Shown one piece after another: positions 1 to 41,165 of a stretch of 53,750 nucleotides of DNA (position 1 is the first letter of the stretch; the number at the start of each line of letters is the position of its first letter). The position numbers and the translations under genes are program-made. The stretch covers positions 1-53,750 of the forward strand of contig JBDOIG010000308.1 of NCBI GenBank assembly GCA_041082235.1, written 5' to 3'. The DNA comes from Thermodesulfovibrionales bacterium (GTDB lineage Bacteria; Nitrospirota; Thermodesulfovibrionia; Thermodesulfovibrionales; CALJEL01). Under the pieces are notes generated by a model, which saw only the letters and a list, made by a program, of their open reading frames with translations, did no database searches and was not told the origin of the DNA.

Positions 1-150
1 ATATTAATTTAAATTTAAACTTTAAAAATTTATTTCTGGGGTTTCAAAGGGGCGAAAAGCCCCTTTGAGCTCTGCCCCTTTGAGCTTTATAAAGGCCTTG
101 AGGCATACCCCGATAATCAGGAAATGTTTCTAATAGCAAATTTGGGATAA
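1..150 (+). repeat. Right part of the nested palindromic intergenic repeat (copy A, cut by the window edge)
   Basis: Bases 1-112 are nearly identical to 8392-8502; similarity continues more weakly to about 150 (versus 8503-8540). Confidence 0.9.
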
Positions 151-8142: not shown

Positions 8143-8540
8143 GTCACCCGTGACTGCCGACAGAAATAGCGGGGTATGCTGAAAAGACTTTATTGCGACA
8201 CCTTAATGTAAACTTTTTTAATCAACATTGCCAAACATAAAAGGGGCTTCGCCCTTTTAAAACCCCAAAAATAGAATTAAAATTATCTAATAGGGAGTTT
8301 GAGGGACTTTGTCCCTCAATTACTTCACCAGTTTGGTGATAAACCTTTAGTTACAGAGCTTTGAGGGGCAACGCCCCTCAAGTTCCCCTTTATATTAATT
8401 TAAATTTAAACTTTAAAAATTTATTTCTGGGGTTTCAAAGGGGCGAAAAGCCCCTTTGAGTTCTGCCCCTTTGAGCTTTATAAAGGCTTTGAGCATACCC
8501 CGCTACTCAGGAGATATTTCTAATGGCAATTCGGGGTTAC
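8143..8540 (+). repeat. Long form of the nested palindromic intergenic element (copy B; MITE/REPIN-like)
   Basis: Inner IR TAGCGGGGTATGCT (8167-8180) / AGCATACCCCGCTA (8492-8505); imperfect outer IR 8143-8167 / 8516-8540; four GC-rich hairpins inside; homologous copies elsewhere in the window. Confidence 0.85.
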
Positions 8541-13320: not shown

Positions 13321-15251
13321 TGTGACTCAGGTAATTCTACTATAAAGGTAGTACCTCTTTCTGAGGTTTTTACATGTATTGCTCCATTATGTTGCTCCAC
13401 AATGGACTTGCTTACAGAAAGGCCAAGACCAGTTCCTTCACCCACAGGCTTTGTGGTAAAAAATGGATCAAATATCTTTGGCAATATCTCATCAGGTATC
13501 CCGGGACCAGTATCACTAAAGGAGACCAGGCACTTTCCATTCTCAGAAGATGTCTTTATGACAAGTGTCCCCTTCTGGCCATCCATTGCCTGGACTGCAT
13601 TTAATATTATATTAAGAAATACCTGTTCCATCTTATTCCTGTCAACCCTGACTTCTGGAACATCCTTTGTAAATTCCTTTATAACCATTATGCCCCTTTT
13701 TGTGATAATGTATTCCATAAGTCTCAAGACATTTTCTATGAGTTCATTCACGGATGAATATGTCATAACAAGCTCTGTCTGCTTTGAAAAATCAAGAAGC
13801 TGTCTTATTATATCCTGTATCTTCTGCAGGCCTGTATTAATAACCTCTATATGTTTCTGACGAGTCTCTTCATCCATATCTGTTGAAATCAGATTATTAA
13901 AACAGAGCCGTATACCTCCAAGGGGATTGTTGATCTCATGGGCAAGCCCAGCGGAGAGCTGTCCTATTGCAGCAAGTTTCTCTGTTATCCTCATCTGCTC
14001 TTCCATCTGTTTCCTTTCTGTTATATCCTTAACATAATGAACTGCCTTTATAACCTCTCCTTTATCATTAAATATAGGATAGAGATGAATGTAATAATGT
14101 CTTCCTGTTTCATCTTCCCAGTATTCAGATAAAGGTCTTTTTTCTTCTTTTAGCCTCTTCAAGAAACAGACAGGACATATTGTGTCAGGGTCACAATTTT
14201 CAGGCTCGCATTTTTCCTTGAAAACAGCCCTGATGCCCTTTGTCATCCATTCTCTATAGGCGCTATTGGTAAGTTCAACAGTACAGTCAGGTGCAATTAA
14301 GGCAAGTGGATCTGATATGCCCTCAAAGATTGTTTTTAAGGTCTCTGCATGCTTTCTCATAGCCTCCTGTGCCTCATAAAGATACCGTGACATCTGATTA
14401 AATGAAGTTATCAGCTCTCCTATCTCATCCTTTGATTGAACAGGTATATTCTGATTCAGCGGTTCTGTACCATCTACTATATTTTTAAATATACCTGTCA
14501 GTCTTCCAAGGGGTCTGCTCACAAGACTCCAGAATGCGCCCTGAAGGGATAGGAACAGGAAAAAAAGTGATATTATCCCGAATACAAAAGTTGAGATGGC
14601 GATACCCTTTATCTCACCAAGGGTGGTTGCAAGTGGCACAGCTACTGATTCCACCCCCATTACATCTCCCTCATTCCAGTAAAAATCTTTTGTCCTATTG
14701 TATTTCTTTACAAGGGATTTAGGGGCATCCTTTAGTTTCCCATGACATACAAGACAACTCTTTTCAACAACAACTGGCTTTGCCCTGATAAGATACTCCT
14801 GACCACTGTCATTTATGATGCCATTCCATGTAGTTTTTTCCCTATTTTTATTGAAAAATTCTATAAGTCTTCTATGAAGTTCATCAGCCGTATTCTTTGG
14901 ATTTAACGGGTTTATTGAAACCCTTTTGTAGATGTAATCTCCAAGCTCATTGTTAAATCTTTTCATCACACTGAATCTTACATGAGTAGTTGACATTGCC
15001 TCAACTATAAAGTCATCCCTTCTGCTGCCATGAAGGATATTAAACATGGCAGGTCTTAGCTCTTCCTTAACATAATCACCAACTGCATCAATCTGGGCAA
15101 GGATTATCCTTGTCTTTTCGCTGGCATCCTCAAGAACCCTTTCTTTGAGATGATAATAGAGGATTACAGAGAAGATAATGCAAAAAACAATCAGTATAAG
15201 GGCTATAGCAAGTGTGAATTTTGTGCTTAGTGAAAGGTTTTTTAACCTCAT
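13317..15251 (-). CDS. Sensor histidine kinase with a periplasmic c-type heme domain (DUF3365-like), HAMP and PAS domains
   Basis: Two TM segments around a domain with CLVCH; HAMP (DEIGEL); AHEINNPL H-box; DPFFTTK and GTGLGL. Confidence 0.9.
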   Translation of the reverse strand: MRLKNLSLSTKFTLAIALILIVFCIIFSVILYYHLKERVLEDASEKTRIILAQIDAVGDYVKEELRPAMFNILHGSRRDDFIVEAMSTTHVRFSVMKRFNNELGDYIYKRVSINPLNPKNTADELHRRLIEFFNKNREKTTWNGIINDSGQEYLIRAKPVVVEKSCLVCHGKLKDAPKSLVKKYNRTKDFYWNEGDVMGVESVAVPLATTLGEIKGIAISTFVFGIISLFFLFLSLQGAFWSLVSRPLGRLTGIFKNIVDGTEPLNQNIPVQSKDEIGELITSFNQMSRYLYEAQEAMRKHAETLKTIFEGISDPLALIAPDCTVELTNSAYREWMTKGIRAVFKEKCEPENCDPDTICPVCFLKRLKEEKRPLSEYWEDETGRHYYIHLYPIFNDKGEVIKAVHYVKDITERKQMEEQMRITEKLAAIGQLSAGLAHEINNPLGGIRLCFNNLISTDMDEETRQKHIEVINTGLQKIQDIIRQLLDFSKQTELVMTYSSVNELIENVLRLMEYIITKRGIMVIKEFTKDVPEVRVDRNKMEQVFLNIILNAVQAMDGQKGTLVIKTSSENGKCLVSFSDTGPGIPDEILPKIFDPFFTTKPVGEGTGLGLSVSKSIVEQHNGAIHVKTSERGTTFIVELPESQ

Positions 15252-15438
15252 CTTTGTTTAATTTTAATAAATGTATATATATTTAAGCAAGAAAGAGGTT
15301 CCTTCCCGTAACCCGCTGAGATGACTTCCTTAATCAAAAGGTGAGCTGTTTCATGAACAGGGAATCTTGATCTAAAGGGACCTCTGGCAGAGGAGCTGCC
15401 AGAATCCATGATTTTCTGATATTGCTTCTTTTTGAATA

Positions 15439-15660
15439 CGGTGATTTGCCGATAGAAAATGGGCAGTCTGCCTCAAAGCCTTTACAAAGCGACGATTTTT
15501 ATTTATTATGTAACAAGAGGTTTTTCACCAGATGGTGAAGTTAGATATATATAGCAAGCTGATTAATAACCTTACATTAAGGTGTCGCAGGTAAAGTCCT
15601 TTCAGCATTCTGCCCATTTATTTAAAGCGGATTTGGTACATTCTATCGGCGATTTGAGGT
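15439..15660 (-). repeat. Short form of the nested palindromic element (copy E; core inverted relative to B/C/D)
   Basis: Inner IR AAATGGGCAG (15457-15466) / CTGCCCATTT (15610-15619); outer IR TTGCCGATAGAA / TTCTATCGGCGA; reverse complement contains GCGACACCTTAATGTAA as at 8195. Confidence 0.85.
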
Positions 15661-15733
15661 GAATACTATATGTAAGATTTTAATCTGCGATTTTTGTTAT
15701 AATATTTAAATTTATTACATATGGAGGTATGGT

Positions 15734-16021
15734 TTGAAGGTATCAGAACAGGCAATTGAGAGATTTAAAAAGATACTGAGAGAATCAAAGGCAGAGGATG
15801 CAGGGATTAGAATTTTTCTCTCAGGTGGTTGAAGGCCATCTCTGGCTATGGACATAGCCAAAGAACCTTATGCAACTGACAGCGCTATGGAATTTGATGG
15901 TCTTAAACTCTATCTTGATATGTGGGCACAGAATATACTTGCACAGGCAACCATTGATTATTCAGAAGGTTATGGATTTACCATAACAGGTGCCTCAGAA
16001 CCAGGCTCATGCTGTAGTTGA
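15734..16021 (+). CDS. HesB/IscA-like selenoprotein (in-frame UGA read as Sec at codon 33)
   Basis: SD GGAGGT, TTG start; [98 protein letters not shown] at 15830-15832 lies at the first conserved Cys of A-type carriers. Confidence 0.88.
15838..15864 (+). promoter_or_regulatory. Bacterial SECIS-like hairpin
   Basis: TGGCTAT-GGAC-ATAGCCA (15843-15860); the apical loop begins with G, 17 nt after the UGA. Confidence 0.75.
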
Positions 16022-16294
16022 TGAACTTTAAACATTATAACATTTAAGTCTTCGACTGCTTCAGGTTTATTATTCAACAATAAGTATCAGCATCAAGGAT
16101 AAAAGGCGGATATACCTCAAAACAGTTGGCATGGAAGTTTCATTGATAAGACTCCTCTTTTACTCTGTTTTTCTGCACTATAGTATTTAAGGTATAGCTC
16201 TAAAGGCTTTTTTGGCGTGCCATCCTTCCCTGAATAGTTTTTTTAGAGAAGAGGAAAGAAAAATTTAGCTTTATTTAATATGATAAAATAAAAC

Positions 16295-16738
16295 ATGGGC
16301 TTTGAGATTATTGATGTAGCCGGAGATGTTGGAATCAGGGCTGATGGTGGTAAGCTTGAAGAGGTCTTTATAAATGCTGCAAAGGGCTTATACAGTCTAA
16401 TTACTGACACGGATAGTATAAACCTTGAAAAAACCCTGAACATCGAGATCAGGGCTCATAATATAGCCGGGCTTCTGGTCAATTTTTTAAATGAGCTTAT
16501 ATTTCATTTTGATGCCTATGGATTTATTGGAAGGAGCATTGATATAGAAAGTAATATTAATATTAACATTATAAATGAAGAAAACAGGGATCTCTGGCTC
16601 AAAGCTATAATTAAAGGTGAGGACTTTGATCCTGAAAGGCATGAAAGAAGGCTTCTTGTAAAGGCTGCAACTTATCATAAACTCAGGTTTTATAAGGACA
16701 ATGACAGGTGGAAGGTGAACATAATCTTTGATATCTGA
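16295..16738 (+). CDS. Archease
   Basis: N-terminal DVAGDVGI, C-terminal VKAATYH and IFDI; directly upstream of rtcB. Confidence 0.92.
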   Translation: MGFEIIDVAGDVGIRADGGKLEEVFINAAKGLYSLITDTDSINLEKTLNIEIRAHNIAGLLVNFLNELIFHFDAYGFIGRSIDIESNININIINEENRDLWLKAIIKGEDFDPERHERRLLVKAATYHKLRFYKDNDRWKVNIIFDI

Positions 16739-18198: not shown

Positions 18199-19011
18199 TT
18201 GGAAAAGCTGAGGATTGGAAAGATTCCCTATCTTAATCTCTTTCCCTTTTTTTATTTTCTTGAAAAGCTCAAAGAGCCGGTCTTTGAATTTATAGAAGAT
18301 ATACCATCAAGATTGAATAAAAAATTAAGGGCTGGTGAAATAGATATAAGTCCCTCCTCTTCTATTGAATACCTGTTAAACCAGGACCTTTATGAGATTA
18401 TAGAGAACCATTCTATAAGCTCAAAAGGACCTGTAAAGAGCATAATCCTCTTCAGTAAAAGTCCTTTAAAGGAGCTCGCCAATAGGACACTCCTGGTAAC
18501 AGATCAGTCTGATACCTCAATAATACAGTTAGAGATAATAGCAAATATATTCCTCAGGCTTGATATAAAGACAGAGAGGAGTAATCTTTCTTTAGATGAA
18601 GGCCTGAGCGAATATCCTGCCTATTTACTTATCGGTGATGAGGCAATGAAAAATCTCTATCTCAATAAAAAGTTTTATATTTATGACCTTGGAGAACTGT
18701 GGAAAAGATATACAGGTCTTCCCTTTGTGTATGCACTATGGATAATAAGAAAAGATGCCATTAATAACAGAGGTCTCTTGATTAAAAAGCTTAAGGAAGA
18801 ACTTGATAATATAAAAAGAGAGTTTTTAAAAGCCCCTGCTCGGATCTCTCATCTACCAGAGATATCAAAGATTATAGGGCCTCAGGAGGTATTGTCTTAC
18901 TGGGAGACCCTGTCATTTGATTTAACCGAGGAGCATAAAAAGGGATTGGAACTTTTCAGATATTATGCAATGATGCTCAATCAGAAAAAAGATTCTTTAT
19001 CTTATCCATAA
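18199..19011 (+). CDS. mqnA: Chorismate dehydratase (futalosine menaquinone pathway)
   Basis: [35 protein letters not shown]. Confidence 0.88.
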
Positions 19012-20077
19012 ATGTCTTTTGAGGTTCCTCATTATTCAGCCTTGCAAGTTCCTCAATAAGCTCTTTTTGCCTTGGTGTAATCTTTTTTGGTACCTCTATG
19101 TAAACCCTTACAATTTGATTACCCCTCGTATGGCTATGAAGCCTCTGAATTCCCTTCCCTTTGAGAACAAACTCTGCGCCTGATGATGTCCCTGGCGGGA
19201 TTCTTAATTTAGCAGGGCCCTCAAGGGTGGGGACCTCTATGTCTGCACCAAGCACTGCCTGAGGAAATGTTATAGGTATCTCACATATTATATTATTACC
19301 ATCCCTTTTGAAAAGGGGATGTTCCTCCACAGTTATATACACATAAAGGTCTCCAGGAGGACCACCATTCTGACCCAGTTCACCCTCACCCCTTAATCTC
19401 AGCTTTGAGCCTGTCTCAACTCCAGCAGGTATCTTTATTGATAATGCCTTTGTCTTTGTGATGAGACCGCTGCCCTTGCATCTTTTGCAGGGATCTCCGA
19501 TTACATAACCCTTTCCATGACATTTCCCGCAGGTCTTTGATATGGTAAAGAATCCCTGCTGGTATCTTACCTGACCTGTACCCCTGCAATTTAGACAGGA
19601 GGAAGGTTTTCTACCCGCTGAACCTGTCCCGGCACAGTCAGCACAGGGCTCTGTCTTTGGTATCTCTATAATCTTTTCAGCACCAAAGGCTGCCTCATGG
19701 AGATTTATCGTGAGGTTGTAACGAAGGTCTTCGCCTCTCCGGGGTCTATGAGTCCTTCTGCCACTGAAGGCACCAAAGAAATCTTCAAAGATATCTTCAA
19801 AGATATCACCAAAGGTACCGGTGAAGGGCCCAAATCCAGGCCCTTCAGTATATGTTGATGTCCCGAACTGGTCATACTGCTGTCTTTTTACAGGATCACT
19901 CAAGCAGGCATAGGCTTCATTTATCTCCTTGAATTTTTCCTCTGCCTCTTTGTTACCAGGATTCCTGTCAGGATGATATTTAAGGGCAAGTTTTCTAAAG
20001 GCCTTCTTTATCTCCTCAGGACTGGCATCCCTTGATACACCGAGGATTTCATAGTAATCCTTCATCTCTCTCATCAA
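18977..20077 (-). CDS. dnaJ: Chaperone DnaJ (start may be the ATG at 20065)
   Basis: J-domain HPD and four CxxCxGxG repeats. Confidence 0.97.
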
Positions 20078-20120
20078 TTATTTTTAACCCCGATCTACAA
20101 CAACAGTACCCGTCTGAATT

Positions 20121-22040
20121 TCACTTTTTGTCCTTTTTATCAACATCCTCAAACTCTGCCTCCACCACATCCTCTTCTTTTTTCTTACCCTCTTCTGAAC
20201 CGGAGGCAGCAGCGCCAGCTCCTGCTCCTGATGCTGCTGCCTTATATATATGCTCAGCAATCTTGTAGGAAGCCCTTGTAAGCTCCTCTATTGCTTTTTT
20301 AATCTCATTTACATCATTAGAAGACTCCTTTACCTTCCTGCACCTGTCAAGCGCCTCCTCAATGGTCTTCTTTTCTGCTTCTGTTACCTTATCACCGTAT
20401 TCTCTCAGGGATTTTTCAACTGAATAAATAAGGTTGTCTGCCTCGTTCCTTACCTCTGCAATCTGCTTCTTTCTCCTGTCTTCCTCTGCGTGAGCCTCAG
20501 CCTCTCTCATCATCCTCTTGATCTCTTCTTCTGTTAATCCACTTGAGGCGGTTATCCTTATGGACTGCTCCTTGCCTGTACCAAGATCTTTTGCCGAGAC
20601 ATGAAGGATTCCATTTGCATCTATATCAAAGGTGACCTCTATCTGAGGCACCCCCCTCGGTGCAGGTGGTATCCCCACAAGCTCAAAGACCCCGAGGAGC
20701 TTATTATCTGCTGCCATGGGTCTCTCACCTTGATACACCTTTATGGTAACAGCGGGCTGATTATCAGTGGCAGTGGTGAATATCTGTGACTTCTTGGTTG
20801 GTATTGTTGTATTCCTTTCTATAATCTTTGTGAAAACACCTCCCAGTGTCTCAATACCAAGCGAAAGAGGTGTAACATCAAGGAGCAGGACCTCCTTTAC
20901 TTCACCCTTAAGTACTGCCGCCTGTATAGCTGCTCCTACTGCAACAACCTCATCAGGATTAACTGTCTTATTCGGGTCTTTGCCAAAATAAGCTTTTACA
21001 GTCTCCTGAACCTTTGGTGTCCTTGTCTGACCACCCACAAGAATCACCTCATCAATATCCTTCTGGGATAGATTTGCATCAGACAGGGCAAGCTTGCATG
21101 GACCCAGGGTCTTCTCTATAAGATCCCCAACGAGCTGTTCTAACTTTGCCCTTGTGAGTTTCATCACCAGGTGCTTTGGGCCTGTGGCATCTGCAGTTAT
21201 AAATGGAAGATTTATCTCTGTCTCCATTGCCTGAGAGAGTTCTATCTTTGCCTTTTCAGCAGCCTCCTTCAGCCTCTGCAGTGCCATCTTATCCTGTCTG
21301 AGGTCAATCCCCTGATCCCTTTTGAATTCCTCTATCATCCAGTCCATAATCCTGAGGTCAAAGTCATCGCCACCAAGATAGGTATCACCATTGGTAGCCC
21401 TGACCTCTATAACACCCTCTCCTATTTCCAGTATAGAAATATCAAAGGTTCCACCACCAAGGTCATAGACCGCTATCTTTTCTTCTTTCTTTTTGTCAAG
21501 ACCGTAGGCAAGGGCTGCTGCTGTTGGTTCATTTATTATCCTCAAGACATTCAAACCAGCAATCCTTCCAGCATCCTTGGTTGCCTGCCTCTGGCTGTCA
21601 TCAAAATATGCCGGGACTGTAATAACCGCCTCTGTAACAGGCTCTCCGAGATAATCCTCTGCAGCCTGTTTAAGCTTCTGAAGTATCATGGCTGATATCT
21701 CAGGAGGTGAATAAACCTTTCCCATAATCTCCACATGAGCATCACCATTTGGAGCCTGCACGATCTTGTAAGGAAGCCTCTTCATAGCCTCTTTAACTTC
21801 AGCAGAATCATATTTCCTTCCCATTAATCTCTTTATTGAAAAGATAGTATTTGTAGGATTGGTTATCGCCTGTCTTTTGGCAATCTGACCAACAAGTCTA
21901 TCGCCTTTCTCTGTAAAGGCTACAACAGAGGGGGTTGTCCTTGAACCCTCCTGATTTGGTATCACAACAGGTTCACCACCTATAACAACTGCAACAACAG
22001 AGTTTGTTGTTCCAAGGTCAATTCCAATTGCCTTTCCCAT
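20121..22040 (-). CDS. dnaK: Chaperone DnaK
   Basis: [17 protein letters not shown], full-length Hsp70. Confidence 0.98.
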
Positions 22041-22064
22041 ATTTTCTACCTCCTTTTTTTAAAT

Positions 22065-22661
22065 TTATCCTGTAATCTCTTTCTTTTCAGGTTTTTTTGA
22101 TACCGCTACTAAAGAGGGTCTCAAAACCTTATCCTTATACATATATCCCTTTCTCAACTCCTCTACTACAGTCATTTCATCTACATCATCCCTCTCCACC
22201 ATTGACATTGCCTCATGATACAGGGGATCAAAGGGTTTCATGTATGATTCTATCTGTGAAAGCCCTGCCCTCTCAAGGGCCTTCAGGATCTCTTTCAGGG
22301 TGAGTTTCACACCCTCAACAAGTCCTGAATAGGCATTCTCTGCATGTTTTATGGCCATCTCAAGATTGTCCAGAGAAGGGATAAGAGAATTTATTAATGC
22401 CTCATTAGAGTACTTTATGATATCTTCCTTTTCACGGGTTACCATCTTTTTGTAATTCTCAAATTCTGCATACAGCCTCATATATCTATCCTTTAAGTCC
22501 TCAATCTCCTTTTTGAGGCCATTTATGAATGCCTCTTCATTGAATGTAAGCTCTTGTCTTTCTTCTTTTGGAATCTCTTGTTTTTCCTCATGAACTATAC
22601 CTTGAGGGGTCTCGGAAACATCTTCCCGAAGACCCTCTTTTAGCTCCTTTTCATTATCCAT
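22065..22661 (-). CDS. grpE: Nucleotide exchange factor GrpE
   Basis: RLYAEFENYKK, FDPLYHEA, VLRPSLV; start placed at ATG 22661 behind SD GGAGGT. Confidence 0.94.
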   Translation of the reverse strand: MDNEKELKEGLREDVSETPQGIVHEEKQEIPKEERQELTFNEEAFINGLKKEIEDLKDRYMRLYAEFENYKKMVTREKEDIIKYSNEALINSLIPSLDNLEMAIKHAENAYSGLVEGVKLTLKEILKALERAGLSQIESYMKPFDPLYHEAMSMVERDDVDEMTVVEELRKGYMYKDKVLRPSLVAVSKKPEKKEITG

Positions 22662-23691
22662 GTCTGCACCTCCCTGAAAGGACATCTGTAATAAAATCAG
22701 ATACAGACCTTACCATTGAGATAGCCTTTGCATAATCCATCCTTTTGGGACCTATCAAACATATAGCCCCCGCTGGTCTATCCTTTTCATAATAAGTTGA
22801 TGCCACAATGCTGAAATCCTGCATCTCCTTTATCTGGTTCTCATTGCCTATTATAACCTTCATCCCGTTGCTTTTGTAAATAAGTTCATCAAGGAGATTC
22901 AGGATGAGGTGTTTATCCTCAATCGCCCTTACAAGTTCTCTAATTTTTGAAATATTAAAGAAATCAGGAAGTTCAAAGACCTGAGAAAAACCATGGATAA
23001 AAAGCATATCCTCTGTAAGGAGTGCCTCCCTGCAGAGCCTGATAGATTTTGAGATGAGGGCATCACACATAACCTTCTCCCTTGTCATCTCTTTAAAGAT
23101 TAATTCCCTTATCTCATTTATTGAATAACCAAAAAACCTTAAATTTATATACCTTGCTGCCTCATTCAGCTCGGATTGTGAAAGCGGAGTGCTTATATCA
23201 AGGATTCTTCTTTTAGTAATTCCCTCTGCTGTCTCAAAATTGAAAAGGATCTGTGAGGAACTTAATTTTTTAATCTCTATCTTCTTTATTATTGTGTTTC
23301 CTTCAAAGGGGTGTGAGGCCACACTCACATAATGAGTTAAGGTAGCGAGTGATTTTGTAGTTCTTTCAAGCATCAGTTCAATATTATCTCTAATATCCTC
23401 AAGTCTCCTTGTCAGTTCTCTTATAAGAAGAGTATTTATCTTCGGTTCATTGCTGAGGATATTGTTTACATAGAATCTAAATCCCCTGTCAGTTGGTATC
23501 CTTCCTGCTGAGGTATGAGGTTGAAAAAGATAACCAAGTTCCTCGAGATCAGCCATGACATTCCTTATGGTTGCTGAGGAAAGGTCAAAACCATACTTCT
23601 TTGCAATATGTCTTGATCCAACAGGATCAAGCCTCTGAATATAACTCTCTACCACAGCTATTAATATCTTCTTGGCCCTCTCGTCAAGCAT
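22654..23691 (-). CDS. hrcA: Heat-inducible transcription repressor HrcA
   Basis: SSATIRNVMADLE, QPHTSAGRIPT, GPKRMDY; CIRCE upstream. Confidence 0.95.
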   Translation of the reverse strand: MLDERAKKILIAVVESYIQRLDPVGSRHIAKKYGFDLSSATIRNVMADLEELGYLFQPHTSAGRIPTDRGFRFYVNNILSNEPKINTLLIRELTRRLEDIRDNIELMLERTTKSLATLTHYVSVASHPFEGNTIIKKIEIKKLSSSQILFNFETAEGITKRRILDISTPLSQSELNEAARYINLRFFGYSINEIRELIFKEMTREKVMCDALISKSIRLCREALLTEDMLFIHGFSQVFELPDFFNISKIRELVRAIEDKHLILNLLDELIYKSNGMKVIIGNENQIKEMQDFSIVASTYYEKDRPAGAICLIGPKRMDYAKAISMVRSVSDFITDVLSGRCRHG

Positions 23692-23705
23692 ATCAATCTA
23701 CCTCG

Positions 23706-23732
23706 TTAGCACTCTCAGTGCGAGAGTGCTAA
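23706..23732. promoter_or_regulatory. CIRCE element
   Basis: Exact TTAGCACTC-N9-GAGTGCTAA. Confidence 0.97.
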
Positions 23733-23757
23733 AATTAATATAGCAACTCCTGAGAAT

Positions 23758-24594
23758 CTATGTCAAGTAAAGGAGGCACTCCCTAATTATTCTTGCTGCC
23801 ATGATGGAAGTTATGCCTGATGGATCAAAAGGCGGTGAGACCTCTACTATATCAAGACCTGCAAGCCTTATCCCTCTCAAATTCCTTATAAATGAAAGGA
23901 CATCCCCAGGTCTCCATCCACAGGGTTCAGGGGTACCTGTACCAGGTGAATAGGCGGGATCAAGCACATCTATATCAATGGAGATATATACATCCTTACC
24001 TTTAAGAACTTTAAAAAACTCTTCGGAAGGAAGGTGAGGAGAATAATATATTCCCGAAGACCTGTAATATTCTGCCTCCTCCCTTGAGCCCGACCTGATA
24101 CCAAACTGGAAGATCCTCTCATGAGGGATTATCTCGCTTATCCTTCTCATTACTGTGGCATGGGATAATCTTAAACCGTTGTATTCATCTCTCATGTCAG
24201 CATGGGCATCAAGAGTCACAACATAAAGTTCTTTAAACTTATGTGAAAGGATATCTACAACTGGATAGGTAATAAGATGTTCTCCTCCAATAATAAAGGG
24301 CAGGCTATCTGAATCAAGAAGGTATTTTATAGCCTCCCTTATTTCATCAACTGCCTTTTCAATTGAGCCTGAGATGAGAAGGTCTCCTCTATCAGAGAAT
24401 CTTATATTATGGAGATCACCCCCTGCCAGAAGATCATATTCTTCCAGACCGTAGGAGGCTTCTCTTATAGCAACAGGAGCAAACCTCGTTCCGGGTCTAT
24501 AGGATGTACTGAGGTCCAGTGGTATCCCAACTATTGTAAAAGGACCTCCTTCAGAACTTGCCATAAAGGATCTGGTCTTTTCAAATACCGGCAT
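23758..24594 (-). CDS. speB: Agmatinase / aminopropylagmatine ureohydrolase
   Basis: GGEH, DAHAD and DIDVLDP ureohydrolase motifs; in a polyamine operon. Confidence 0.9.
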   Translation of the reverse strand: MPVFEKTRSFMASSEGGPFTIVGIPLDLSTSYRPGTRFAPVAIREASYGLEEYDLLAGGDLHNIRFSDRGDLLISGSIEKAVDEIREAIKYLLDSDSLPFIIGGEHLITYPVVDILSHKFKELYVVTLDAHADMRDEYNGLRLSHATVMRRISEIIPHERIFQFGIRSGSREEAEYYRSSGIYYSPHLPSEEFFKVLKGKDVYISIDIDVLDPAYSPGTGTPEPCGWRPGDVLSFIRNLRGIRLAGLDIVEVSPPFDPSGITSIMAARIIRECLLYLT

Positions 24595-25411
24595 CTTTTA
24601 AAAACTTTGGCAGCACAAAGGATGCCCTGTGAATGTCAGGGGTATAATATTTTGTTTCAAATTCTGAAGCCCTCTGGGGAATGGAAGGATCATACTTTTT
24701 AGACCCTGCTGTAAAACTCCAGTATCCTGATGGATAGGTTGGGACAGGCGAGGTATAAATCCTGCAGATAGGAAAGACTTTTTCCATAGATGTCTTTACC
24801 TTTTTTATGAGGGAAGTATGAAGAAAGGGCGATTCAGACTGGGTTACAAGAATCCCATCCTTTTTTAATGCCCTGTAGCAGTCTTTATAAAAGGATTCTG
24901 AAAAGAGACCTTCTGCAGGTCCAACAGGATCAGTTGAATCAACTATTATAATATCAAATCTGTTTTCCTGTTGCTGTACATACTTTATACCATCAGCTAT
25001 CTCAACGCTGAATCTGGGGTCTCCTTCAAAGGAGCTGTAAAAGGGAAGGAATTTTTTAGAAACCTCAACAACATCTCTATCTATCTCTACAAGGATCGCC
25101 TCTCTTGTAATCCTGTGTTTAAGGATCTCCCTCAGGGTACCACCATCTCCACCTCCTATAACAAGAACGCTCTCAGGTTCTGGATGACTCAAAAGTGGTA
25201 CATGCGTTATCATCTCATGATAAAAGAATTCATCCCTTTCAGTTGTTTGAAAGGTTCCCTCAAGAAATAACACCCTTCCAAACTGATAGGAGTCCACCAT
25301 AAGGATTTCCTGATATGGTGAGGTCTTTCTGTAAAGCGTCTCCTTTATCTTTATTCCGAGGGACAGGTCAGGGGTCTGTTTTTCTGCCAACCACAATTCT
25401 GTCTCTGGCAT
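24581..25411 (-). CDS. speE: Polyamine aminopropyltransferase
   Basis: YHEMITH, IGGGDGG, DSTDP, PTYPSG. Confidence 0.94.
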   Translation of the reverse strand: MPETELWLAEKQTPDLSLGIKIKETLYRKTSPYQEILMVDSYQFGRVLFLEGTFQTTERDEFFYHEMITHVPLLSHPEPESVLVIGGGDGGTLREILKHRITREAILVEIDRDVVEVSKKFLPFYSSFEGDPRFSVEIADGIKYVQQQENRFDIIIVDSTDPVGPAEGLFSESFYKDCYRALKKDGILVTQSESPFLHTSLIKKVKTSMEKVFPICRIYTSPVPTYPSGYWSFTAGSKKYDPSIPQRASEFETKYYTPDIHRASFVLPKFLKDAGI

Positions 25412-25419
25412 CTTTCACC

Positions 25420-25929
25420 TTAATACCATAGAGGAACTGCTGCAAAGACACAGCCTATCTTTTTTACTATATGCTCAACAGCCTTTACATAGATTTGATT
25501 TAAAGGAAGTCCCCTTACCTCAAAGGCCTCTCTGAGCATATCAACAACCTTTTCCTCCGCCACCTCCCTGGAGCAATAACCTGAAAACTCCATTATCACT
25601 CCATAGCTATCCTTTTTTGAAATACCAACAGCTACAGATGCTGATATGAGCCTACCTTCTTCAGAAGATATAAGGGAACCATAAGCTATAGGAAGAAGAA
25701 TCCCTGGCTGTATATTAACTGTGTCATGATATACCGCTCCCGGGGGAAGGATGCTGCTTACCTTCAGTAGATTTACATTACCTACTCCTGAAAGGAGTAA
25801 GGACCTGTCAAAGGCAGTAAGTTCTGTTTTTCCCTCAGAGGCAGCTCCAACAAGGGAAAATTTTGTGGGCATGGGAAGCCCGGGCATTAGAAATTCTCTT
25901 GTTAATGTCCTTTCTTCTGTCTCTGTCAA
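25420..25929 (-). CDS. pdaD: Pyruvoyl-dependent arginine decarboxylase
   Basis: NLLKVSSILPP self-cleavage motif, GVIMEFSG; TTG start with SD. Confidence 0.88.
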   Translation of the reverse strand: MTETEERTLTREFLMPGLPMPTKFSLVGAASEGKTELTAFDRSLLLSGVGNVNLLKVSSILPPGAVYHDTVNIQPGILLPIAYGSLISSEEGRLISASVAVGISKKDSYGVIMEFSGYCSREVAEEKVVDMLREAFEVRGLPLNQIYVKAVEHIVKKIGCVFAAVPLWY

Positions 25930-26024
25930 CTTTACCTCTCCTTTCCTGGATTTTTAATCCAGATATTATAGTTTTATTAGCAAAGTATTATAAACTAATC
26001 TGTCCCCTGAATCAATAAAAAAAT

Positions 26025-26720
26025 TCATCTTGGCTTTCTTATCTGAAGCAACCTCTTCGCAGCAGCCCTTACAGCCTCTGATACATTTCTGTTCTTTTCC
26101 AGAAGCTCAAGGTCCCTTGTTTTAAGATTTGTCACAAAACCAACCGCTATACCGGGTGGTGTCTTGGGATTTGTTACAAGTGCCTGAACTATAGAATAGT
26201 TTTTCATCCAGTCCCTGTTATTTGCTATTTGTCTCAGGACCTCTTCGGGGATAGACCTCTGTCTTGCTATCATCTCTATCTCTGATTCAGTTATCTTTGG
26301 ATTCTCTATTACACTCAATACCACATCCTTATTTGTATCCTTAATAAGGATTGACCTTATCTCCCGCCCACCTCTCATGGCAAGAAGCCTTCTTTTAGGG
26401 ACAGGGAGTCTCTGAATCTTCATTAAAAGGCTCTCTTTTTTTCTTTCCTCTTTTTCCTCTGTAATAACAGGCCTTGCCGGTGTTATCTGTGATGCCTTTT
26501 GTAAAACAGGAAGGTTAAGGAGGCTGGCTACTTCTGCCTTTATTTCCTCAGGAGTATTATGATGTTCGTAGAGGAGTTTAAGTATTTCAGGTCTCTGCTT
26601 ATTTGCATGAAGGATTTCATTGAATATATTGCTGTCTGAGGCGTCTTCAATAAGTATCTCAATGACATCAGCTGATGTCACTGAGAGGTCCAGACCTATA
26701 GCCCGCTGTTCTTCCATCAC
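26025..26720 (-). CDS. Conserved hypothetical helical-repeat protein
   Basis: Long ORF coupled to tlyA (4-nt overlap); repeated NPK(I/T) helical motifs. Confidence 0.8.
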   Translation of the reverse strand: MMEEQRAIGLDLSVTSADVIEILIEDASDSNIFNEILHANKQRPEILKLLYEHHNTPEEIKAEVASLLNLPVLQKASQITPARPVITEEKEERKKESLLMKIQRLPVPKRRLLAMRGGREIRSILIKDTNKDVVLSVIENPKITESEIEMIARQRSIPEEVLRQIANNRDWMKNYSIVQALVTNPKTPPGIAVGFVTNLKTRDLELLEKNRNVSEAVRAAAKRLLQIRKPR

Positions 26721-27451
26721 TCCTTTTTCAGATATAAAAAGTATTCCACATTTCCCTTCTGTCCTTCAAGGGGTGACCTGAAACTGCCTATAACAGAAAA
26801 ACCCATTCCCTTTGCTTCATTGGCAACCATCTCAACTGCCATAAGTCTCTTTGCCTCATCCCTTACTATCCCGCCCTTTCCCACATCCTTTCTACCGACC
26901 TCAAATTGCGGTTTTACAAGGCACAATGCCTCTCCCTCAGGTTTCAGAAATTCTATCACTCTTGGAAGGACTTTAGTAAGTGATATAAAGGAGACATCTA
27001 CTGTAGCTATATCAATAGCCTCAGGTATGGCATCCCGTTGAAGGTATCTGATATTTGTCTTTTCAAAAAGTATAATCCTTGGATCATTTCTTAAGCTCCA
27101 GGCAAGCTGTCCATACCCAACATCTATACAGTAGACCTTTCTGGCACCGTGCTTGAGAAGGCAATCAGTAAAACCACCTGTAGAACAGCCCACATCCATA
27201 GCAATCTTATGTGTTACATCAATCTTGAAATGTAAAAGGGCTGCTTCAAGTTTAAGCCCTCCCCTGCTTACATAAGGAAGCCCTGCGTCCTTAAGCTGTA
27301 TATCTCTATCAGGATTTATTAATGTCCCTGGTTTTGTGCAGGGATGACCATCAATAAAGACCTTACCCTCCATTACGAGGGATCTTGCCCTCTCACGGGT
27401 GCTCACAAGACCCCTCTCAACAAGCACCCGGTCAAGCCTCTCTTTTTTCAT
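26717..27451 (-). CDS. tlyA: TlyA family RNA methyltransferase
   Basis: S4 domain, YVSRGGLKL, DVGCSTGGFTD, DVSFIS, KPQFE. Confidence 0.95.
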   Translation of the reverse strand: MKKERLDRVLVERGLVSTRERARSLVMEGKVFIDGHPCTKPGTLINPDRDIQLKDAGLPYVSRGGLKLEAALLHFKIDVTHKIAMDVGCSTGGFTDCLLKHGARKVYCIDVGYGQLAWSLRNDPRIILFEKTNIRYLQRDAIPEAIDIATVDVSFISLTKVLPRVIEFLKPEGEALCLVKPQFEVGRKDVGKGGIVRDEAKRLMAVEMVANEAKGMGFSVIGSFRSPLEGQKGNVEYFLYLKKE

Positions 27452-27601
27452 CTTTAAAATAAGGTTTCAAACATTTCTCATAGATAAGCAGGACTATCCA
27501 TTGCCCAATTCAAAAAATGAATTCTCTCCCCGCTTCCACGAAGTGGAATGGATGTCCATAAAGTTACACACGGCATCTTCTTATGTCGCCACTCTTTATG
27601 C

Positions 27602-29482
27602 TCACAGTGTAACAGTAGTCCTTTCCATTAATAAAAGTGCTGAATTTATTATCCCTGTCTTATCAAGCCCGTGTCGCTGTCTCAGCTCCTGCTGGGTACC
27701 GTGTTCCACAAACTGATCAGGTATTCCGAGAGACCTTATATGGATATCCTGTAGCCCCACCCTCTGGAAAAATTCCATTACAGCACTTCCAAAACCTCCA
27801 ATCAGGGCGTTATCTTCAACAGTAATTATCCTCTTTATCCGTCTTGCGAGGGAATAGATAAGGGACTCATCAAGGGGTTTTACAAATCTTGCATTCACTA
27901 CTGTTACATCAATATCCATCTTTCTTAATTCCTCTGCAGCCTCTATTGCTGGAGCCACCATATTACCAATAGCGAGTATCATCAGATCATCTCCACTCAT
28001 GAGTACCTCTGCCTGTCCAACGTCAAAGGGATTCCTCTGGCCTTCTATGATAATAGCCTTCCCCCTGGGATACCTTATGGCTGAGGGACCATCAATCTTC
28101 ATGGAAAGGGCAAGCATTGCCTTCAATTCAATACCGTCTCTGGGAGACATTATAATCATATTTGGTATGAGCCTTAAATAGGAAAGGTCAAATTGCCCCT
28201 GATGAGTGGCTCCATCTTCACCAACTATGCCAGCCCTGTCAATACAGAATGTCACAGGAAGCCTCTGAATACAGACATCGTGTATAATCTGGTCAAAGGC
28301 CCTTTGAAGAAAAGTGGAATATATTGCCACATAGGGTCTCAGACCTTCTCTTGCAAGACCTGCAGCAAAGGTTACAGCGTGCTGTTCAGCGATACCCACA
28401 TCATAAAGTCTCTCAGGAAACCTTTCAGAAAAACAGTTAAGACCTGTCCCGTCCTTCATGGCAGCTGTAATCGCTATAATCCTTTTATCTTTTGAGGCGA
28501 GTTCTGTAAGGTATTGACCAAAAAGCTCACTGTAGGTCTGCTGGGTTGACTTTACAGGACTACCAGTCTCAAGGCTGAAAGGCCCTACGCCATGGAAGAC
28601 ACAGGGATCCTCCTCTGAGTACTTATATCCTTTGCCCTTCTTGGTTATTACATGCAGAAGCACGGGTCCTTTTATATCCTTTAATTTTTTGAGGGTTGAT
28701 ATCAGAAGTTCTATATTATGACCATCAATGGGTCCGAGATATTCAAAGCCAAGCTCCTCAAAGAGGAGGCCAGGTGGCAGGAATATTCCTTTCAGTGTCT
28801 CCTCTGCCTTTTCTGCAAGTCTTGCCACAGGTTCACTGAATTTCCTGGGGATATTTTTAAGTATCTGTTTTGTCTCATCCTTGAATTTTCTATAAAGATT
28901 TCCTGTTAATATCCTGTTCAGATATTCTGCAAGGGCTCCCACATTCTTTGATATGGACATCTCATTGTCATTAAGTATTACAATAAGGTCTTTTTTCCTC
29001 TGGCCTGCGTGATTCAGTGCCTCAAAGGCCATGCCTGCAGTAAGAGCCCCATCTCCAATGACCGCTATCACCCTCTTTTGCTCTCCTTTAATATCCCTTG
29101 CCTCTGCCATTCCAAGGGCTGCTGATATGGATGTGGAACTATGGCCTGTTCCAAAGGCATCATGAGGGCTTTCCTCTATTCTTGGAAATCCAGAGATACC
29201 TCCTGACTTTCTTAATGTATGAAATACACTGTATCTACCTGTGAGAAGTTTATGAGGATAGGACTGGTGGCCCACATCCCAAATTATCCTGTCATGAGGA
29301 GAGTTAAAGACATGGTGAAGGGCTATAGCGATTTCCACAACACCGAGGTTTGAGGCAAGATGACCTCCGTTCCTTGAGACGGTCTCAATTATAACCTGTC
29401 TTATCTCAGAGGCTAAATTCTTTAGTTCCTCAATGCTCAGTCCTTTTATATCTTCTGGTCCTCTTATAGATTCAAGCATCAT
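27602..29482 (-). CDS. dxs: 1-deoxy-D-xylulose-5-phosphate synthase
   Basis: GGHLASNLG, WDVGHQ, GDGALTAG, DVGIAEQHA. Confidence 0.97.
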   Translation of the reverse strand: MMLESIRGPEDIKGLSIEELKNLASEIRQVIIETVSRNGGHLASNLGVVEIAIALHHVFNSPHDRIIWDVGHQSYPHKLLTGRYSVFHTLRKSGGISGFPRIEESPHDAFGTGHSSTSISAALGMAEARDIKGEQKRVIAVIGDGALTAGMAFEALNHAGQRKKDLIVILNDNEMSISKNVGALAEYLNRILTGNLYRKFKDETKQILKNIPRKFSEPVARLAEKAEETLKGIFLPPGLLFEELGFEYLGPIDGHNIELLISTLKKLKDIKGPVLLHVITKKGKGYKYSEEDPCVFHGVGPFSLETGSPVKSTQQTYSELFGQYLTELASKDKRIIAITAAMKDGTGLNCFSERFPERLYDVGIAEQHAVTFAAGLAREGLRPYVAIYSTFLQRAFDQIIHDVCIQRLPVTFCIDRAGIVGEDGATHQGQFDLSYLRLIPNMIIMSPRDGIELKAMLALSMKIDGPSAIRYPRGKAIIIEGQRNPFDVGQAEVLMSGDDLMILAIGNMVAPAIEAAEELRKMDIDVTVVNARFVKPLDESLIYSLARRIKRIITVEDNALIGGFGSAVMEFFQRVGLQDIHIRSLGIPDQFVEHGTQQELRQRHGLDKTGIINSALLLMERTTVTL

Positions 29483-30360: not shown

Positions 30361-30403
30361 TTTACCTGACTGATAAGAATTTATGGGCAATCATACTCCT
30401 ATT

Positions 30404-30520
30404 CCCGTAAGTTGTCCATAGACAAAAGGGCAGTATGCCTCAAGGCCTTTATTTTTATTTATCCTGTAACAGTAGGTTTTATTTAAGCTTCGTTGTATAT
30501 ATTCTATCGGCATTTTTGAA
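30404..30520 (-). repeat. Internally deleted copy of the palindromic element (copy F)
   Basis: GGGCAGTATGCCTCAAGGCCTTTA and ATTCTATCGGC match both ends of copy E. Confidence 0.7.
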
Positions 30521-33522
<3,002 letters not shown>

Positions 33523-33577
33523 CTAAAACTCCTTTTTTGCTTTAAATTTTAACATGTAGAGGGTTGAGAAGGCAAAC

Positions 33578-34087
33578 TCAGTAGATAATAAACCCTGCTA
33601 TGCCTGCACCAAGGATTATAAAGGTTGGATCAATCTTTGTGAATGAAATAAGGATGAAGGAGATCATAGCAATCATAATGCTATAAAGGTCTATAAAAGA
33701 GGCCCTTCCAAGGGATATGGCTGTTGCCATGAGTAAACCTATAACAGCAGGTTTTATGCCCTTAAAGGCTGCATCCACAAAAGGAGATTTTCTGAAACCC
33801 TGATAATAATAGCTTATTAAGGTGACCACAATAAGGGATGGTAGATAGGAACTTATTGTGGCACCAACAGCGCCTGCAATTCCGAAGAGCTTATAGCCAA
33901 TAAAGGCATTCATAATTGTAAGAGGCCCTGGTGTCATCTGACCCACTGCAATCGCCTCTATGAATTCCTGATGACTGAGCCAGTGGAGTTTCTCAACAAG
34001 CTCTTTTTCAAGGAGGGGTATCATTACATAGCCACCTCCAATGGTAAAGAGATTTATATAAAACAGTATAAAAAAGAATTTAAACAT
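33578..34087 (-). CDS. chrA: Short-chain chromate transporter (CHR family), second subunit
   Basis: FTIGGG and GQMTPGP motifs; paired with the upstream paralog. Confidence 0.88.
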   Translation of the reverse strand: MFKFFFILFYINLFTIGGGYVMIPLLEKELVEKLHWLSHQEFIEAIAVGQMTPGPLTIMNAFIGYKLFGIAGAVGATISSYLPSLIVVTLISYYYQGFRKSPFVDAAFKGIKPAVIGLLMATAISLGRASFIDLYSIMIAMISFILISFTKIDPTFIILGAGIAGFIIY

Positions 34088-34619: not shown

Positions 34620-35776
34620 TTCAATCTTTTTTTAAATCTTTCAAGCTCCCTCAGTCCATCCTCTCTTGTCCTTATCTTACCAGAAAATTGAAGTGCCCAT
34701 AGTTTTTTTAAAATAGACCCTATGTGTCTGGATTTTATATCACTGTTTTTTACAATATCAAGACCTCTTATAAGGGGTGTTTTCATCACCTCTTTAAATC
34801 TTTGAGCCTCCCTGAGCAATCTCCTGCTTGAGAGCAAAAATCCAGGACCCTCTGGAAAGTCCCTTATATCATAAAGGAGCTCAAATAGTCTCTCTTTGTT
34901 TTGAAGGATTCCAGGCTTATACACACTCATAACCTTATGAAGGGCCTCAAGAAGCCTCTGATTTTTTTTGCTGAGTTTTATAAGCCAGGCCTTTTTTTTA
35001 TAGCTCAGGCATACAAGCCTTAAAAATCCAAGGTCAGAAAGCCCCTGGGAAGAAATAAGGTGAGGCATATAATCTTGCTTTTTTTTATAAAAATTATTAA
35101 GTCTTTTATAAAATTTAAAGTTGTTTATAATATCTGTTTCGCTAACACCCAGAATTAACTGCAAAATTTTATCTTTAATGGCCATCCTTAAGTATTTATT
35201 AGGCTGTTCCAGATTCAGAAGCTTTATTAATTCTGCTGTGAGCCTTTCCTTTGCAGGAACCCTGAGCATAAATCTCAGTTCTGAGAGGACTTTTCTTGTA
35301 GAGGAATCAATAGAGCCATTAATCTGAGCAGCCAGCCTGTAAGCCCTGATAATCCTGATGGGGTCAGAACGAATATTATCCCTGGAAATAACTCTAATAA
35401 CCCTCCTTTTGATATCCCTTAATCCTCCGTACAGATCTATAATTCCCTCTTCAGGAGACCAGGCAAGACTGTTAATTATAAAATCTCTCCTGCTGAGGTC
35501 CCTCTCTAATGACTCATCTGTAAAGGTAATATCTACTTCATGATCTTTAAGAACAAATCTTGCCATATTTTTCAAAATAAAAAAACTTCCTCCAAGACTC
35601 TTTGACAGTCTTTTAATTTTTTCATAATCAGGTTTTCCTGTAACAACATAATCCCTGTCGTTTGAGCTCCTGCCAAGAATGAGATCTCTTATATACCCAC
35701 CAACAAGAAAGGCAGATGGAAATTCTTTTCTGACAAGATGTGTGATAGAATCTTTTTTGAGTATTGATGGCTGCAA
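34616..35776 (-). CDS. Class II tRNA nucleotidyltransferase, probably CC-adding
   Basis: LVGGYIRD, DRD, DLSRRDF, DPIRIIRAYR; the ORF-track start (35857) lies inside repeat copy C, so TTG 35776 is preferred. Confidence 0.85.
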   Translation of the reverse strand: MQPSILKKDSITHLVRKEFPSAFLVGGYIRDLILGRSSNDRDYVVTGKPDYEKIKRLSKSLGGSFFILKNMARFVLKDHEVDITFTDESLERDLSRRDFIINSLAWSPEEGIIDLYGGLRDIKRRVIRVISRDNIRSDPIRIIRAYRLAAQINGSIDSSTRKVLSELRFMLRVPAKERLTAELIKLLNLEQPNKYLRMAIKDKILQLILGVSETDIINNFKFYKRLNNFYKKKQDYMPHLISSQGLSDLGFLRLVCLSYKKKAWLIKLSKKNQRLLEALHKVMSVYKPGILQNKERLFELLYDIRDFPEGPGFLLSSRRLLREAQRFKEVMKTPLIRGLDIVKNSDIKSRHIGSILKKLWALQFSGKIRTREDGLRELERFKKRLK

Positions 35777-35975
35777 TCTGCCACAAGGAATAGGGGGATA
35801 TGATGAAAGGCCTTTATCGCGACACTTTAATATAGGCCTTTTAATTAATATCGTCAAATATAACCTCCTTCGCTATTTGGTGATAGACCTTTCGTTACAT
35901 AATAAATTTGGTCGCTTTATAAAGGCGTGGCATACCCCATATTCAAAGCCTGTTGCTAACGGTAACCTTAAGTGC
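35775..35975 (+). repeat. Short form of the nested palindromic element (copy C)
   Basis: Core 35788-35944: GAATAGGGG...CCTTTATCGCGAC...GTCGCTTTATAAAGG...CATACCCCATATTC; colinear with copy D. Confidence 0.85.
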
Positions 35976-40933: not shown

Positions 40934-40950
40934 GAAAATTCTTCGTCCCC

Positions 40951-41165
40951 AATCTGCATAGGGACGGGGGTGCATGCCGAAAAGCCTTTATCGCGACACC
41001 TTAGTGTAAGATTTTTAATCAACATTACCAAACATAACCTCCTTCACCCTTTGGTGATAAACTCCTTGCTACATGATAAATAAAATTTTGTCGCATTATA
41101 AAGGCTTTGAGACATGCACTGCTATTCCTTATATATTTCTATCAGCGAGTTCAGGTTCGCCCTAA
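40951..41165 (+). repeat. Short form of the nested palindromic element (copy D)
   Basis: GTGCATG..AAAGCCTTTAT..GCGACA ... TGTCGC..ATAAAGGCTTT..CATGCAC; core matches 8185-8240. Confidence 0.87.

What the first reader, a model, noticed from the sequence alone, without database searches (positions are those of the whole stretch)
8143..8540. Dispersed family of nested palindromic elements with compensatory base changes
Seen: at least six intergenic copies in 54 kb (1-150, 8143-8540, 15439-15660, 30404-30520, 35775-35975, 40951-41165), plus possible scraps near 16197-16224 and 37716-37745. The ~150-bp core folds as nested stems (terminal IR, CTTTAT/ATAAAG, GCGAC/GTCGC, TGTAA/TTACA, TCACC/GGTGA). 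Paired arms co-vary between copies: GGGGTATG/CATACCCC (B), GTGCATG/CATGCAC (D), GGGCAG/CTGCCC with TTTAC/GTAAA (E). No transposase lies in the window. Inference: a non-autonomous mobile element or structured RNA selected for base pairing, which I cannot assign to a named family.
Basis: partly seen in the sequence, partly recalled or inferred. Interest (0 to 1): 0.8.

Follow-up and report, generated by a model that had tools for sequence, protein, structure and literature searches.

The report
Folded mini-transposon that swaps its ends
This is a roughly 210-base gene-less DNA repeat, present at over a hundred places in this bacterium, whose ends match IS1380 jumping genes that likely copy it; relatives in other genera keep the same predicted one-strand fold under different jumping-gene ends, so the fold itself is likely under selection.

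Summary
The repeat is real. [quoted passage not shown] Its 20-bp ends match broken IS1380-family elements in the same genome (18/20) and an intact one in a related genome. 28 of 58 two-ended copies have target duplications of 5 bp or more (null mean 0.6), and two window copies are absent at orthologous sites.

The outer stem co-varies; two claimed inner stems do not. G·T wobbles outnumber A·C mismatches (32:10 and 47:9 origins) and a tandem G·A pair is kept, so pairing is selected on one strand. That strand lies against host transcription (36:6) and follows replication direction.

The core occurs in 16 of 401 phylum genomes and carries several IS1380 end types and IS4-family ends. Best reading: a selfish MITE whose fold likely acts in a single-stranded copying stage; an RNA role is the main rival. 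There is no Rfam match and no expression data. Verdict: new variant of a known kind.

The parts
8147..8536 (+). Copy B: composite MITE (core plus two inserted ~85-bp repeats); no clear target duplication
   Evidence: site empty in G002, a shorter related element at the same site in G004
8147..8166 (+). Left terminal inverted repeat, IS1380 type
8168..8192 (+). Left arm of the outer stem, then the GA of the tandem G·A and the AAAG-N-CTTTA box
8239..8319 (-). Inserted second-family repeat (~85-bp REP-doublet-like double hairpin), copy 1
8359..8458 (+). Inserted second-family repeat, copy 2; replaces the segment that carried GTCGC
   Evidence: sequence
8481..8505 (+). Right box TAAAG-N-CTTT-GA and right arm of the outer stem
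8517..8536 (+). Right terminal inverted repeat
1..146 (+). Copy A: right half of a composite copy cut by the contig start (partial ~85-bp insert at 14-67)
15439..15659 (-). Copy C: plain 221-bp copy with a 6-bp duplication (TGAATA) on both sides
30405..30520 (-). Copy E: 116-bp internally deleted copy, 6-bp duplication CTATTC; site empty in G004
35771..35972 (+). Copy F: old plain copy; absent at the orthologous site in G004 and G002; the extra DNA equals the element plus 6 bp
40947..41155 (+). Copy D: plain copy; a shorter related element sits at the same site in G002
16186..16237 (-). Possible decayed left-arm scrap (weak)
   Evidence: E 0.025

Best explanation
This is a gene-less ~210-bp MITE with IS1380-type ends and target duplications, likely copied in trans by an IS1380-family transposase, and its long stem is likely selected because one strand folds while single-stranded during the element's own copying. 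SHOWN: 20-bp ends that match IS1380 elements; duplications of mostly 5-7 bp; empty sites in relatives; an outer stem of up to ~18 bp that co-varies; a kept tandem G·A; wobble bias on one strand; biased orientation; the same core under several IS1380 end types and under IS4-family ends. INFERRED: that IS1380 transposase moves it (odds about 0.85); that the fold serves the element and not the host; and that it acts as single-stranded DNA in a replication-linked, copy-out-type step, protecting the strand or holding the two ends together (about 0.45). The core likely gained new ends by nesting with, or capture by, whichever IS was active.
For: Ends: MITE left consensus matches 18/20 to the right end of the IS1380 element on G000 C261 and 16-17/20 to the ends of the intact 427-aa IS1380 in G209:C60, against 10/20 for the genome's IS1634. 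TSD of 5 bp or more in 28 of 58 copies; null mean 0.6, max 4 in 2000. Empty sites for E and F. Pairing: independent origins of G·T vs A·C are 32:10 in 35 G000 copies and 47:9 in 43 of 50 copies from other genera. Copy-private stem changes are 24:9 while the loop control is symmetric (C>T 0.082 vs G>A 0.073), and there are 13 double changes, 9 Watson-Crick, against 2.2 expected. The true partner has the top corrected mutual information for 12 of 17 columns. GA/GA is kept in 56 of 65 copies. Not from host read-through: the folding strand is antisense to flanking genes 36:6 and 25:5, wobble bias is 24:5 where host genes read the other strand, and no conserved promoter-like site lies on the folding strand (5 of 35, 8 of 50, scattered). 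Replication link: 22:8 in complete genome G011, 13:2 in convergent or divergent gaps; 48:22 by a skew proxy in G000, while the second repeat family is unbiased at 31:28. End swapping. The IS1380 pathway is unknown and looks replicative for ISPme1 (PMC9330008, passages).
Against: No intact IS1380 was found in G000: hits on C261, C141, C238 and C282 are broken (draft of 316 contigs), and G002, with many copies, had no hit. Duplications are mostly 6 bp (11 of the 21 strict hits), while seven autonomous IS1380 relatives show 4-5 bp (read); the six closest show none. 29 of 58 copies have no duplication. No autonomous element carrying the core was found, and IS1380 end profiles barely match the interior. 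In the common orientation the folding strand is the leading-strand template, which is not the exposed strand at a fork. The interior is dispensable: composite copies of 360-390 bp and ~110-bp deletions lacking the G·A pair in G534 both multiplied. The folding strand is the more stable in 24 of 35 G000 copies but only 23 of 50 others. G·T and tandem G·A suit RNA as well as DNA (recalled). Copies were picked by motif and arm pairing, which inflates overall pairing, though not the G·T:A·C ratio. Transcription and replication direction are only partly separated.
Confidence: 0.55

Rival explanations
1. It is an IS-mobilised MITE, but the fold works as RNA: a ~200-nt antisense or processed transcript, for example an RNase III substrate or decoy as proposed for Neisseria NEMIS/Correia elements, and hosts select it.
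For: G·U-rich co-varying stem and tandem G·A. The genome encodes RNase III. Precedents: NEMIS and ERIC (PMC2229807, parts 1-2 of 3 read) and bcr1 (PMC3184786, passages).
Against: Host genes mostly read the other strand. No conserved promoter-like site on the folding strand. Insertion sites are species-specific. RNase III sites are over 90% paired beside the cut in B. subtilis (bioRxiv 10.1101/2023.03.12.532304, passages), so a tandem mismatch is not a canonical double-cut site. No Rfam match.
Confidence: 0.25
2. The stem has no function. Arms are matched by hairpin-driven repair or template switching, and orientation and wobble bias are a survival filter: copies persist when the weaker-folding strand is the exposed lagging-strand template or the mRNA.
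For: Orientation fits this, since the strand with pyrimidine loops and A·C mismatches is the lagging template and the mRNA strand. The interior is dispensable.
Against: The G·A pair, the central mismatch and the 11-22-nt bulge are inherited uncorrected between paired segments. Changes that weaken the exposed strand are not enriched over the loop rate (0.056 vs 0.082), while those that break the folding strand are depleted (0.017 vs 0.073). Pairing persists across 10 genera.
Confidence: 0.12
3. The orientation bias comes from a portable promoter on the non-folding strand that keeps downstream genes expressed, as with IS1380 outward promoters.
For: A TTTACA-17-TATTAT-type site lies at one position in 16 of 35 G000 copies. 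A gene starts at the left end in 61 of 78 scorable copies. ISEcp1 and ISPme1 have outward promoters (PMC9330008, passages).
Against: The site is present in 1 of 50 copies from other genera and is lost in composites, which are just as biased. One site per 240 bp is the shuffle expectation. It does not explain the stem.
Confidence: 0.05
4. Another enzyme moves it: the intact IS1634 transposase on C309, or a REP-associated HUH transposase.
For: The IS1634 element is intact, begins CCGTAA, and its family makes 5-6-bp duplications (recalled). Two RAYT-like genes exist.
Against: IS1634 ends match only 10/20, against 16-18/20 for IS1380. The RAYT-like genes are flanked by other palindromes. HUH enzymes make no duplications (recalled).
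Confidence: 0.03

Closest known systems
Bacterial MITEs matched to a cognate IS (RUP/IS630-Spn1, Nezha, Chunjie, NEMIS/Correia)
   Same: Short, non-coding, multicopy, mostly intergenic; TIRs shared with an IS; target duplications; filled and empty sites; long predicted stem (PMC2229807 parts 1-2; PMC3184786 passages).
   Different: Ends are IS1380-type, for which my searches found no described MITE. The conserved part is an internal stem with a tandem G·A, and it occurs under several IS end types.
IS1380-family insertion sequences (NF033539, PF13701; ISEcp1, ISPme1)
   Same: 17-20-bp CC-starting inverted repeats nearly identical to those of a local IS1380 clade.
   Different: No transposase; duplications mostly 6 bp, not 4-5; interior not traceable to IS1380 ends. 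IS1380 showed no orientation bias in a survey of other phyla (PMC3971601, passages).
bcr1 repeat of the Bacillus cereus group
   Same: ~155-bp dispersed mobile repeat with compensatory base changes and 5-bp direct repeats (PMC3184786, PMC6199540, passages).
   Different: bcr1 duplicates a fixed TTTAT, folds as two independent stems and has no identified mobiliser. Here the targets vary and the ends match known IS families.
REPINs/BIMEs (for the ~85-bp insert only)
   Same: Two inverted GC-rich hairpins around an AT-rich spacer, 155 full copies (PMC3116915 abstract).
   Different: No RAYT gene flanked by it was found; it has no orientation bias.

Membership tests
MITE | Short, no transposase, many dispersed copies | tested here: met
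   200-222 bp; 184 hits, 78 near-full; 10 of 100 overlap a long ORF by more than 60 nt
MITE | Terminal inverted repeats | tested here: met
   both ends scored in 58 copies; consensus
MITE | Target-site duplication | tested here: met
   28 of 58 with 5 bp or more; null mean 0.6
MITE | Filled and empty orthologous sites | tested here: met
   E, F and B empty in at least one congener
MITE | Ends shared with an autonomous IS | tested here: met
   C261 and G209:C60
MITE | Moved in trans by that transposase | not testable with these tools
   needs a transposition assay
IS1380 family | Encodes an IS1380 transposase | tested here: not met
   non-coding, so not filed as a member; it works like an IS1380 passenger
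IS1380 family | IS1380-type CC-starting inverted repeats | tested here: met
   16-18 of 20
IS1380 family | 4-5-bp target duplication (recalled; seen in seven relatives) | tested here: not met
   strict ends give 6 bp x11, 5 x4, 7 x3, 4 x2, 8 x1, none x37; the closest autonomous relatives show no duplication to compare
REP/REPIN (RAYT-moved) | Short REP doublet, no TIR/TSD, matching REPs beside a RAYT gene | tested here: not met
   the core has TIR and TSD; the RAYT-like genes have other flanks
IS200/IS605 PATE or TnpB guide RNA | TnpB/TnpA partner, no TSD | tested here: not met
   no PF07282 hit in G000; TSDs present
Any Rfam 15 RNA family | Covariance-model score over the threshold | tested here: not met
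Structured non-coding RNA | Covariation beyond shared descent | tested here: met
   outer stem only; R-scape not available
Structured non-coding RNA | Discrete transcript | tested here: inconclusive
   the organism was not in the four runs laid
Catalogued ISfinder MITE | Ends and sequence match an entry | not testable with these tools
   ISfinder is not held

The most novel reading that the evidence does not exclude
The real replicator is the folded core, not the ends: a conserved single-strand structure (~18-bp helix, tandem G·A, second helix, ~100-nt loop) that raises its own copy rate at a single-stranded step common to IS1380 and IS4-type transposition, and that moves between transposase families by picking up new terminal repeats. 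It would be a portable transposition enhancer and a handle on the unknown IS1380 pathway.
Probability: 0.2. Interest if true: 0.8.

Novelty: new variant of a known kind. Interest (0 to 1): 0.5.

Why it matters
MITE families are usually defined by their ends, and their stems are treated as by-products. Here the internal fold is the conserved part across at least ten genera, the ends change between IS1380 subgroups and an IS4-family element, and selection acts on one strand. That makes testable why bacterial MITEs keep folds, and it offers a natural substrate for the unresolved IS1380 pathway, the family that mobilises CTX-M genes. If the fold proves inert, this is an ordinary new MITE family in a little-studied order.

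Tried and rejected
Rfam: nothing at the gathering threshold or convincing by E-value. TnpB: none in G000. The IS110 element on C131 was found and printed and has no core hit. IS1634 ends match poorly. Search for an autonomous element carrying the core: no IS1380 transposase beside the 42 pattern loci; no box pair in the ends of 16 transposase loci or 26 IS1380 loci (two lone AAAG-N-CTTT words). The IS1380 right-end profile did no better than its control (3 vs 3 weak hits); the left-end profile gave 12 weak hits against 1, all on the TCACC/GGTGA hairpin, best E 0.016. Viral contigs: 10 pattern hits, all inside long ORFs and unfolded, judged chance. Seven of the 42 genome-collection hits were unrelated or partial. 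A looser pattern was too noisy to count genomes (191 of 251), but it exposed G363. RNA: no RNA holder listed; 0 reads on 14900-16700 and only a few partial, divergent matches on 19000-38900, so there is no test of expression. Earlier-finding look-ups by sequence and by words were empty. What moves the ~85-bp insert was not found. No covariance model, fold or complex job was run.

Full report
OBSERVATION. A profile iterated from three window copies gives 184 hits in the 2.54-Mb draft genome, 78 near-full, about 160 loci after joining halves, and 0 hits in the reversed genome. Plain copies are 200-222 bp and on average 73% alike. The focal copy, 8147-8536, is a composite: the core plus two inserts of a separate ~85-bp double-hairpin repeat (8239-8319, 8359-8458), of which the genome has 155 full copies. 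Its folding z-scores of about -10 therefore include those inserts. Of the 58 delimited copies, 22 hold such inserts and 15 hold two. Several composites have their own target duplications, so the composite likely spread as a unit. Window genes scanned are housekeeping or unassigned (20 of 60 ORFs). Record titles of relatives place the host among Thermodesulfovibrionales.

WHAT IT IS. G000 C261:490-2223 is an IS1380-family element whose transposase is broken by the ~85-bp repeat. Its ends match the repeat's left-end consensus at 16/20 and 18/20. An intact relative in G209:C60 (427 aa, over the NF033539 cut-off; 75% and 66% identical to the two C261 pieces) matches at 16/20 and 17/20. The genome's intact IS1634 matches at 10/20. 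Of 60 loci with both ends scored, two were dropped (one artefact, and the 116-bp copy E). 28 of the remaining 58 have duplications of 5 bp or more, allowing one base of slack, against a permutation mean of 0.6 and a maximum of 4. With strict ends 6 bp is commonest, and 37 have none. Copy F is absent in G004 and G002, and the extra DNA is the element plus 6 bp. E is absent in G004. B's site is empty in G002 but holds a shorter related element in G004, as does D's site in G002. It is a MITE with IS1380-type ends. No intact IS1380 was found in this draft.

THE FOLD. On one strand, copies form: terminal repeat, an 11-22-nt one-sided bulge, a helix of about 12-18 bp, GA opposite GA, AAAG/CTTT, a single mostly purine-purine mismatch, CTTTA/TAAAG, usually GCGAC/GTCGC, and a weakly structured ~100-nt loop. 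In 14 aligned copies the outer helix has 8 of 21 pairs changed on both sides; the claimed TGTAA/TTACA and TCACC/GGTGA stems have none. Arms of the same copy pair better than swapped arms: 0.805 vs 0.634 in G000 and 0.83 vs 0.41 elsewhere. With shared descent partly controlled by comparing partner and non-partner columns, the true partner ranks first for 5 of 10 and 12 of 17 columns. Mismatches are strand-biased. Raw G·T:A·C counts are 68:22 in 65 G000 copies and 68:9 in 43 others. Parsimony origins are 32:10 (27:10 without the CpG-like position next to the GA) and 47:9 (43 of 50 copies kept). Copy-private changes are 24:9 against a symmetric loop control, with 13 double changes (9 Watson-Crick) where 2.2 were expected (35 plain copies of the 65). 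GA/GA is kept in 56 of 65. Copies were chosen by motif and arm pairing, so overall pairing is inflated. Against a simple stability story, the G·A strand is predicted more stable in 24 of 35 G000 copies but only 23 of 50 others.

ORIENTATION. In gaps between co-directed genes the folding strand is antisense 36:6 in G000 (100 loci examined), 25:5 in other genera and 6:1 in G534. In complete genome G011 it has the sequence of the nascent lagging strand in 22 of 30 copies, and in 13 of 15 copies in convergent or divergent gaps. I used 32 of 39 motif hits, leaving out tandem neighbours, second motifs, in-gene hits and a CRISPR spacer, and the script rejected 2 more. A noisy skew proxy gives 48:22 in G000 with 30 unassigned, while the ~85-bp repeat gives 31:28. 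IS1380 itself was not biased in a survey of other phyla (PMC3971601, passages). The wobble bias holds where host genes read the other strand (24:5) and is 7:4 where they read the folding strand. A sigma-70-like site lies on the non-folding strand in 16 of 35 G000 copies but in 1 of 50 others.

DISTRIBUTION AND END SWAPPING. The exact two-box pattern occurs in 16 of 401 phylum genomes (10 genera, three families of one order, G000 included), with 0 in the reversed-pattern control. Interiors differ widely while the outer helix is rewritten yet complementary. The ends differ too. One type matches the left end of the IS1380 in G209:C6. One resembles an end beside an IS1380 fragment in G498. The G363 subfamily (214 loose-pattern hits, 13 regions inspected) resembles a fourth IS1380 end type. 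These last two are resemblances read by eye, and one further end type is unmatched. In G534 and G001 the core (GCGACACC...GTCGC, tandem G·A) sits between ends with 9-bp duplications. Those ends match an intact 1392-bp IS4-family element in G011 that also has a 9-bp duplication. One G046 element with such ends also keeps the G·A stem. No autonomous element carrying the core was found, so its origin is unknown.

MECHANISM. Most likely an IS1380 transposase acts in trans on the ends (inferred, about 0.85). The stem is under purifying selection on one strand (shown statistically). Host transcripts mostly carry the other strand, and the folding strand has no conserved promoter-like site, so I favour selection during the element's own copying, on a single-stranded DNA intermediate (inferred, about 0.45). 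The IS1380 pathway is unknown and appears replicative for ISPme1 (PMC9330008, passages). Weak points: duplications are longer than the 4-5 bp seen in seven IS1380 relatives; the folding strand is usually not the exposed fork template; and deleted or enlarged versions also multiplied. An RNA role (0.25) has precedent in NEMIS, ERIC and bcr1 (PMC2229807 parts 1-2; PMC3184786 passages; PMC6199540 passages). The host has RNase III, but canonical cut sites are paired (bioRxiv 10.1101/2023.03.12.532304 passages), and loops at the site allow only single cuts (PMC3867540 passages). Expression is untested.

NOVELTY. There is no Rfam match. Ten literature searches listed no description of this family or of an IS1380-ended MITE. 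I saw listings for most hits, passages of PMC2674063 and PMC5371410, and the abstract of PMC3116915. ISfinder, subscription journals and supplements were not seen and could hold such an entry. Family traits marked 'recalled' come from no call. Verdict: a new variant of a known kind, a MITE whose conserved unit is a strand-specific fold under exchangeable ends. Interest 0.5.

Noticed in passing
window 8239-8319, 8359-8458, 14-67; genome-wide: A second family of ~85-bp REP-doublet-like double hairpins, 155 full copies, 67 in or beside the core element. It also breaks IS1380 copies on C261, C141, C238 and C282. Its mobiliser was not found.
   Followed up: partly
G000 C12:23126-23312, C7:172-358, C232:7988-8174 and two more: 187-191-bp derivatives of the composite that lost the DNA between the two inserts and occur at five sites.
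   Followed up: no
L001, L007, L002, L005, L006: An intact IS1634 transposase (C309), an IS110 transposase (C131), an IS4-like one (C288) and two RAYT-like genes with their own flanking palindromes.
   Followed up: partly
L362, L363, L368, L379: Other 206-233-bp MITEs with IS4-type ends and long stems containing a G·A mismatch but a different sequence; possibly the same architecture arising twice.
   Followed up: no
L164-L190, L060-L062: Many IS1380 right ends in this order are about 220-230 bp long, with a shared GG-rich motif and a hairpin before the terminal repeat.
   Followed up: partly
G001; G363: Large expansions: 188 IS4-type end matches in G001 and 214 core-like matches in G363.
   Followed up: partly
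L117 (G011:C1 about 260800-261250): Head-to-tail copies of the core at 193-bp spacing.
   Followed up: no
L250 (G011:C1 near 1710280): A CRISPR-like array; one spacer region carries the 12-base right-box word, probably by chance.
   Followed up: no
L085: A copy interrupted by an IS1634 element of the C309 type.
   Followed up: no
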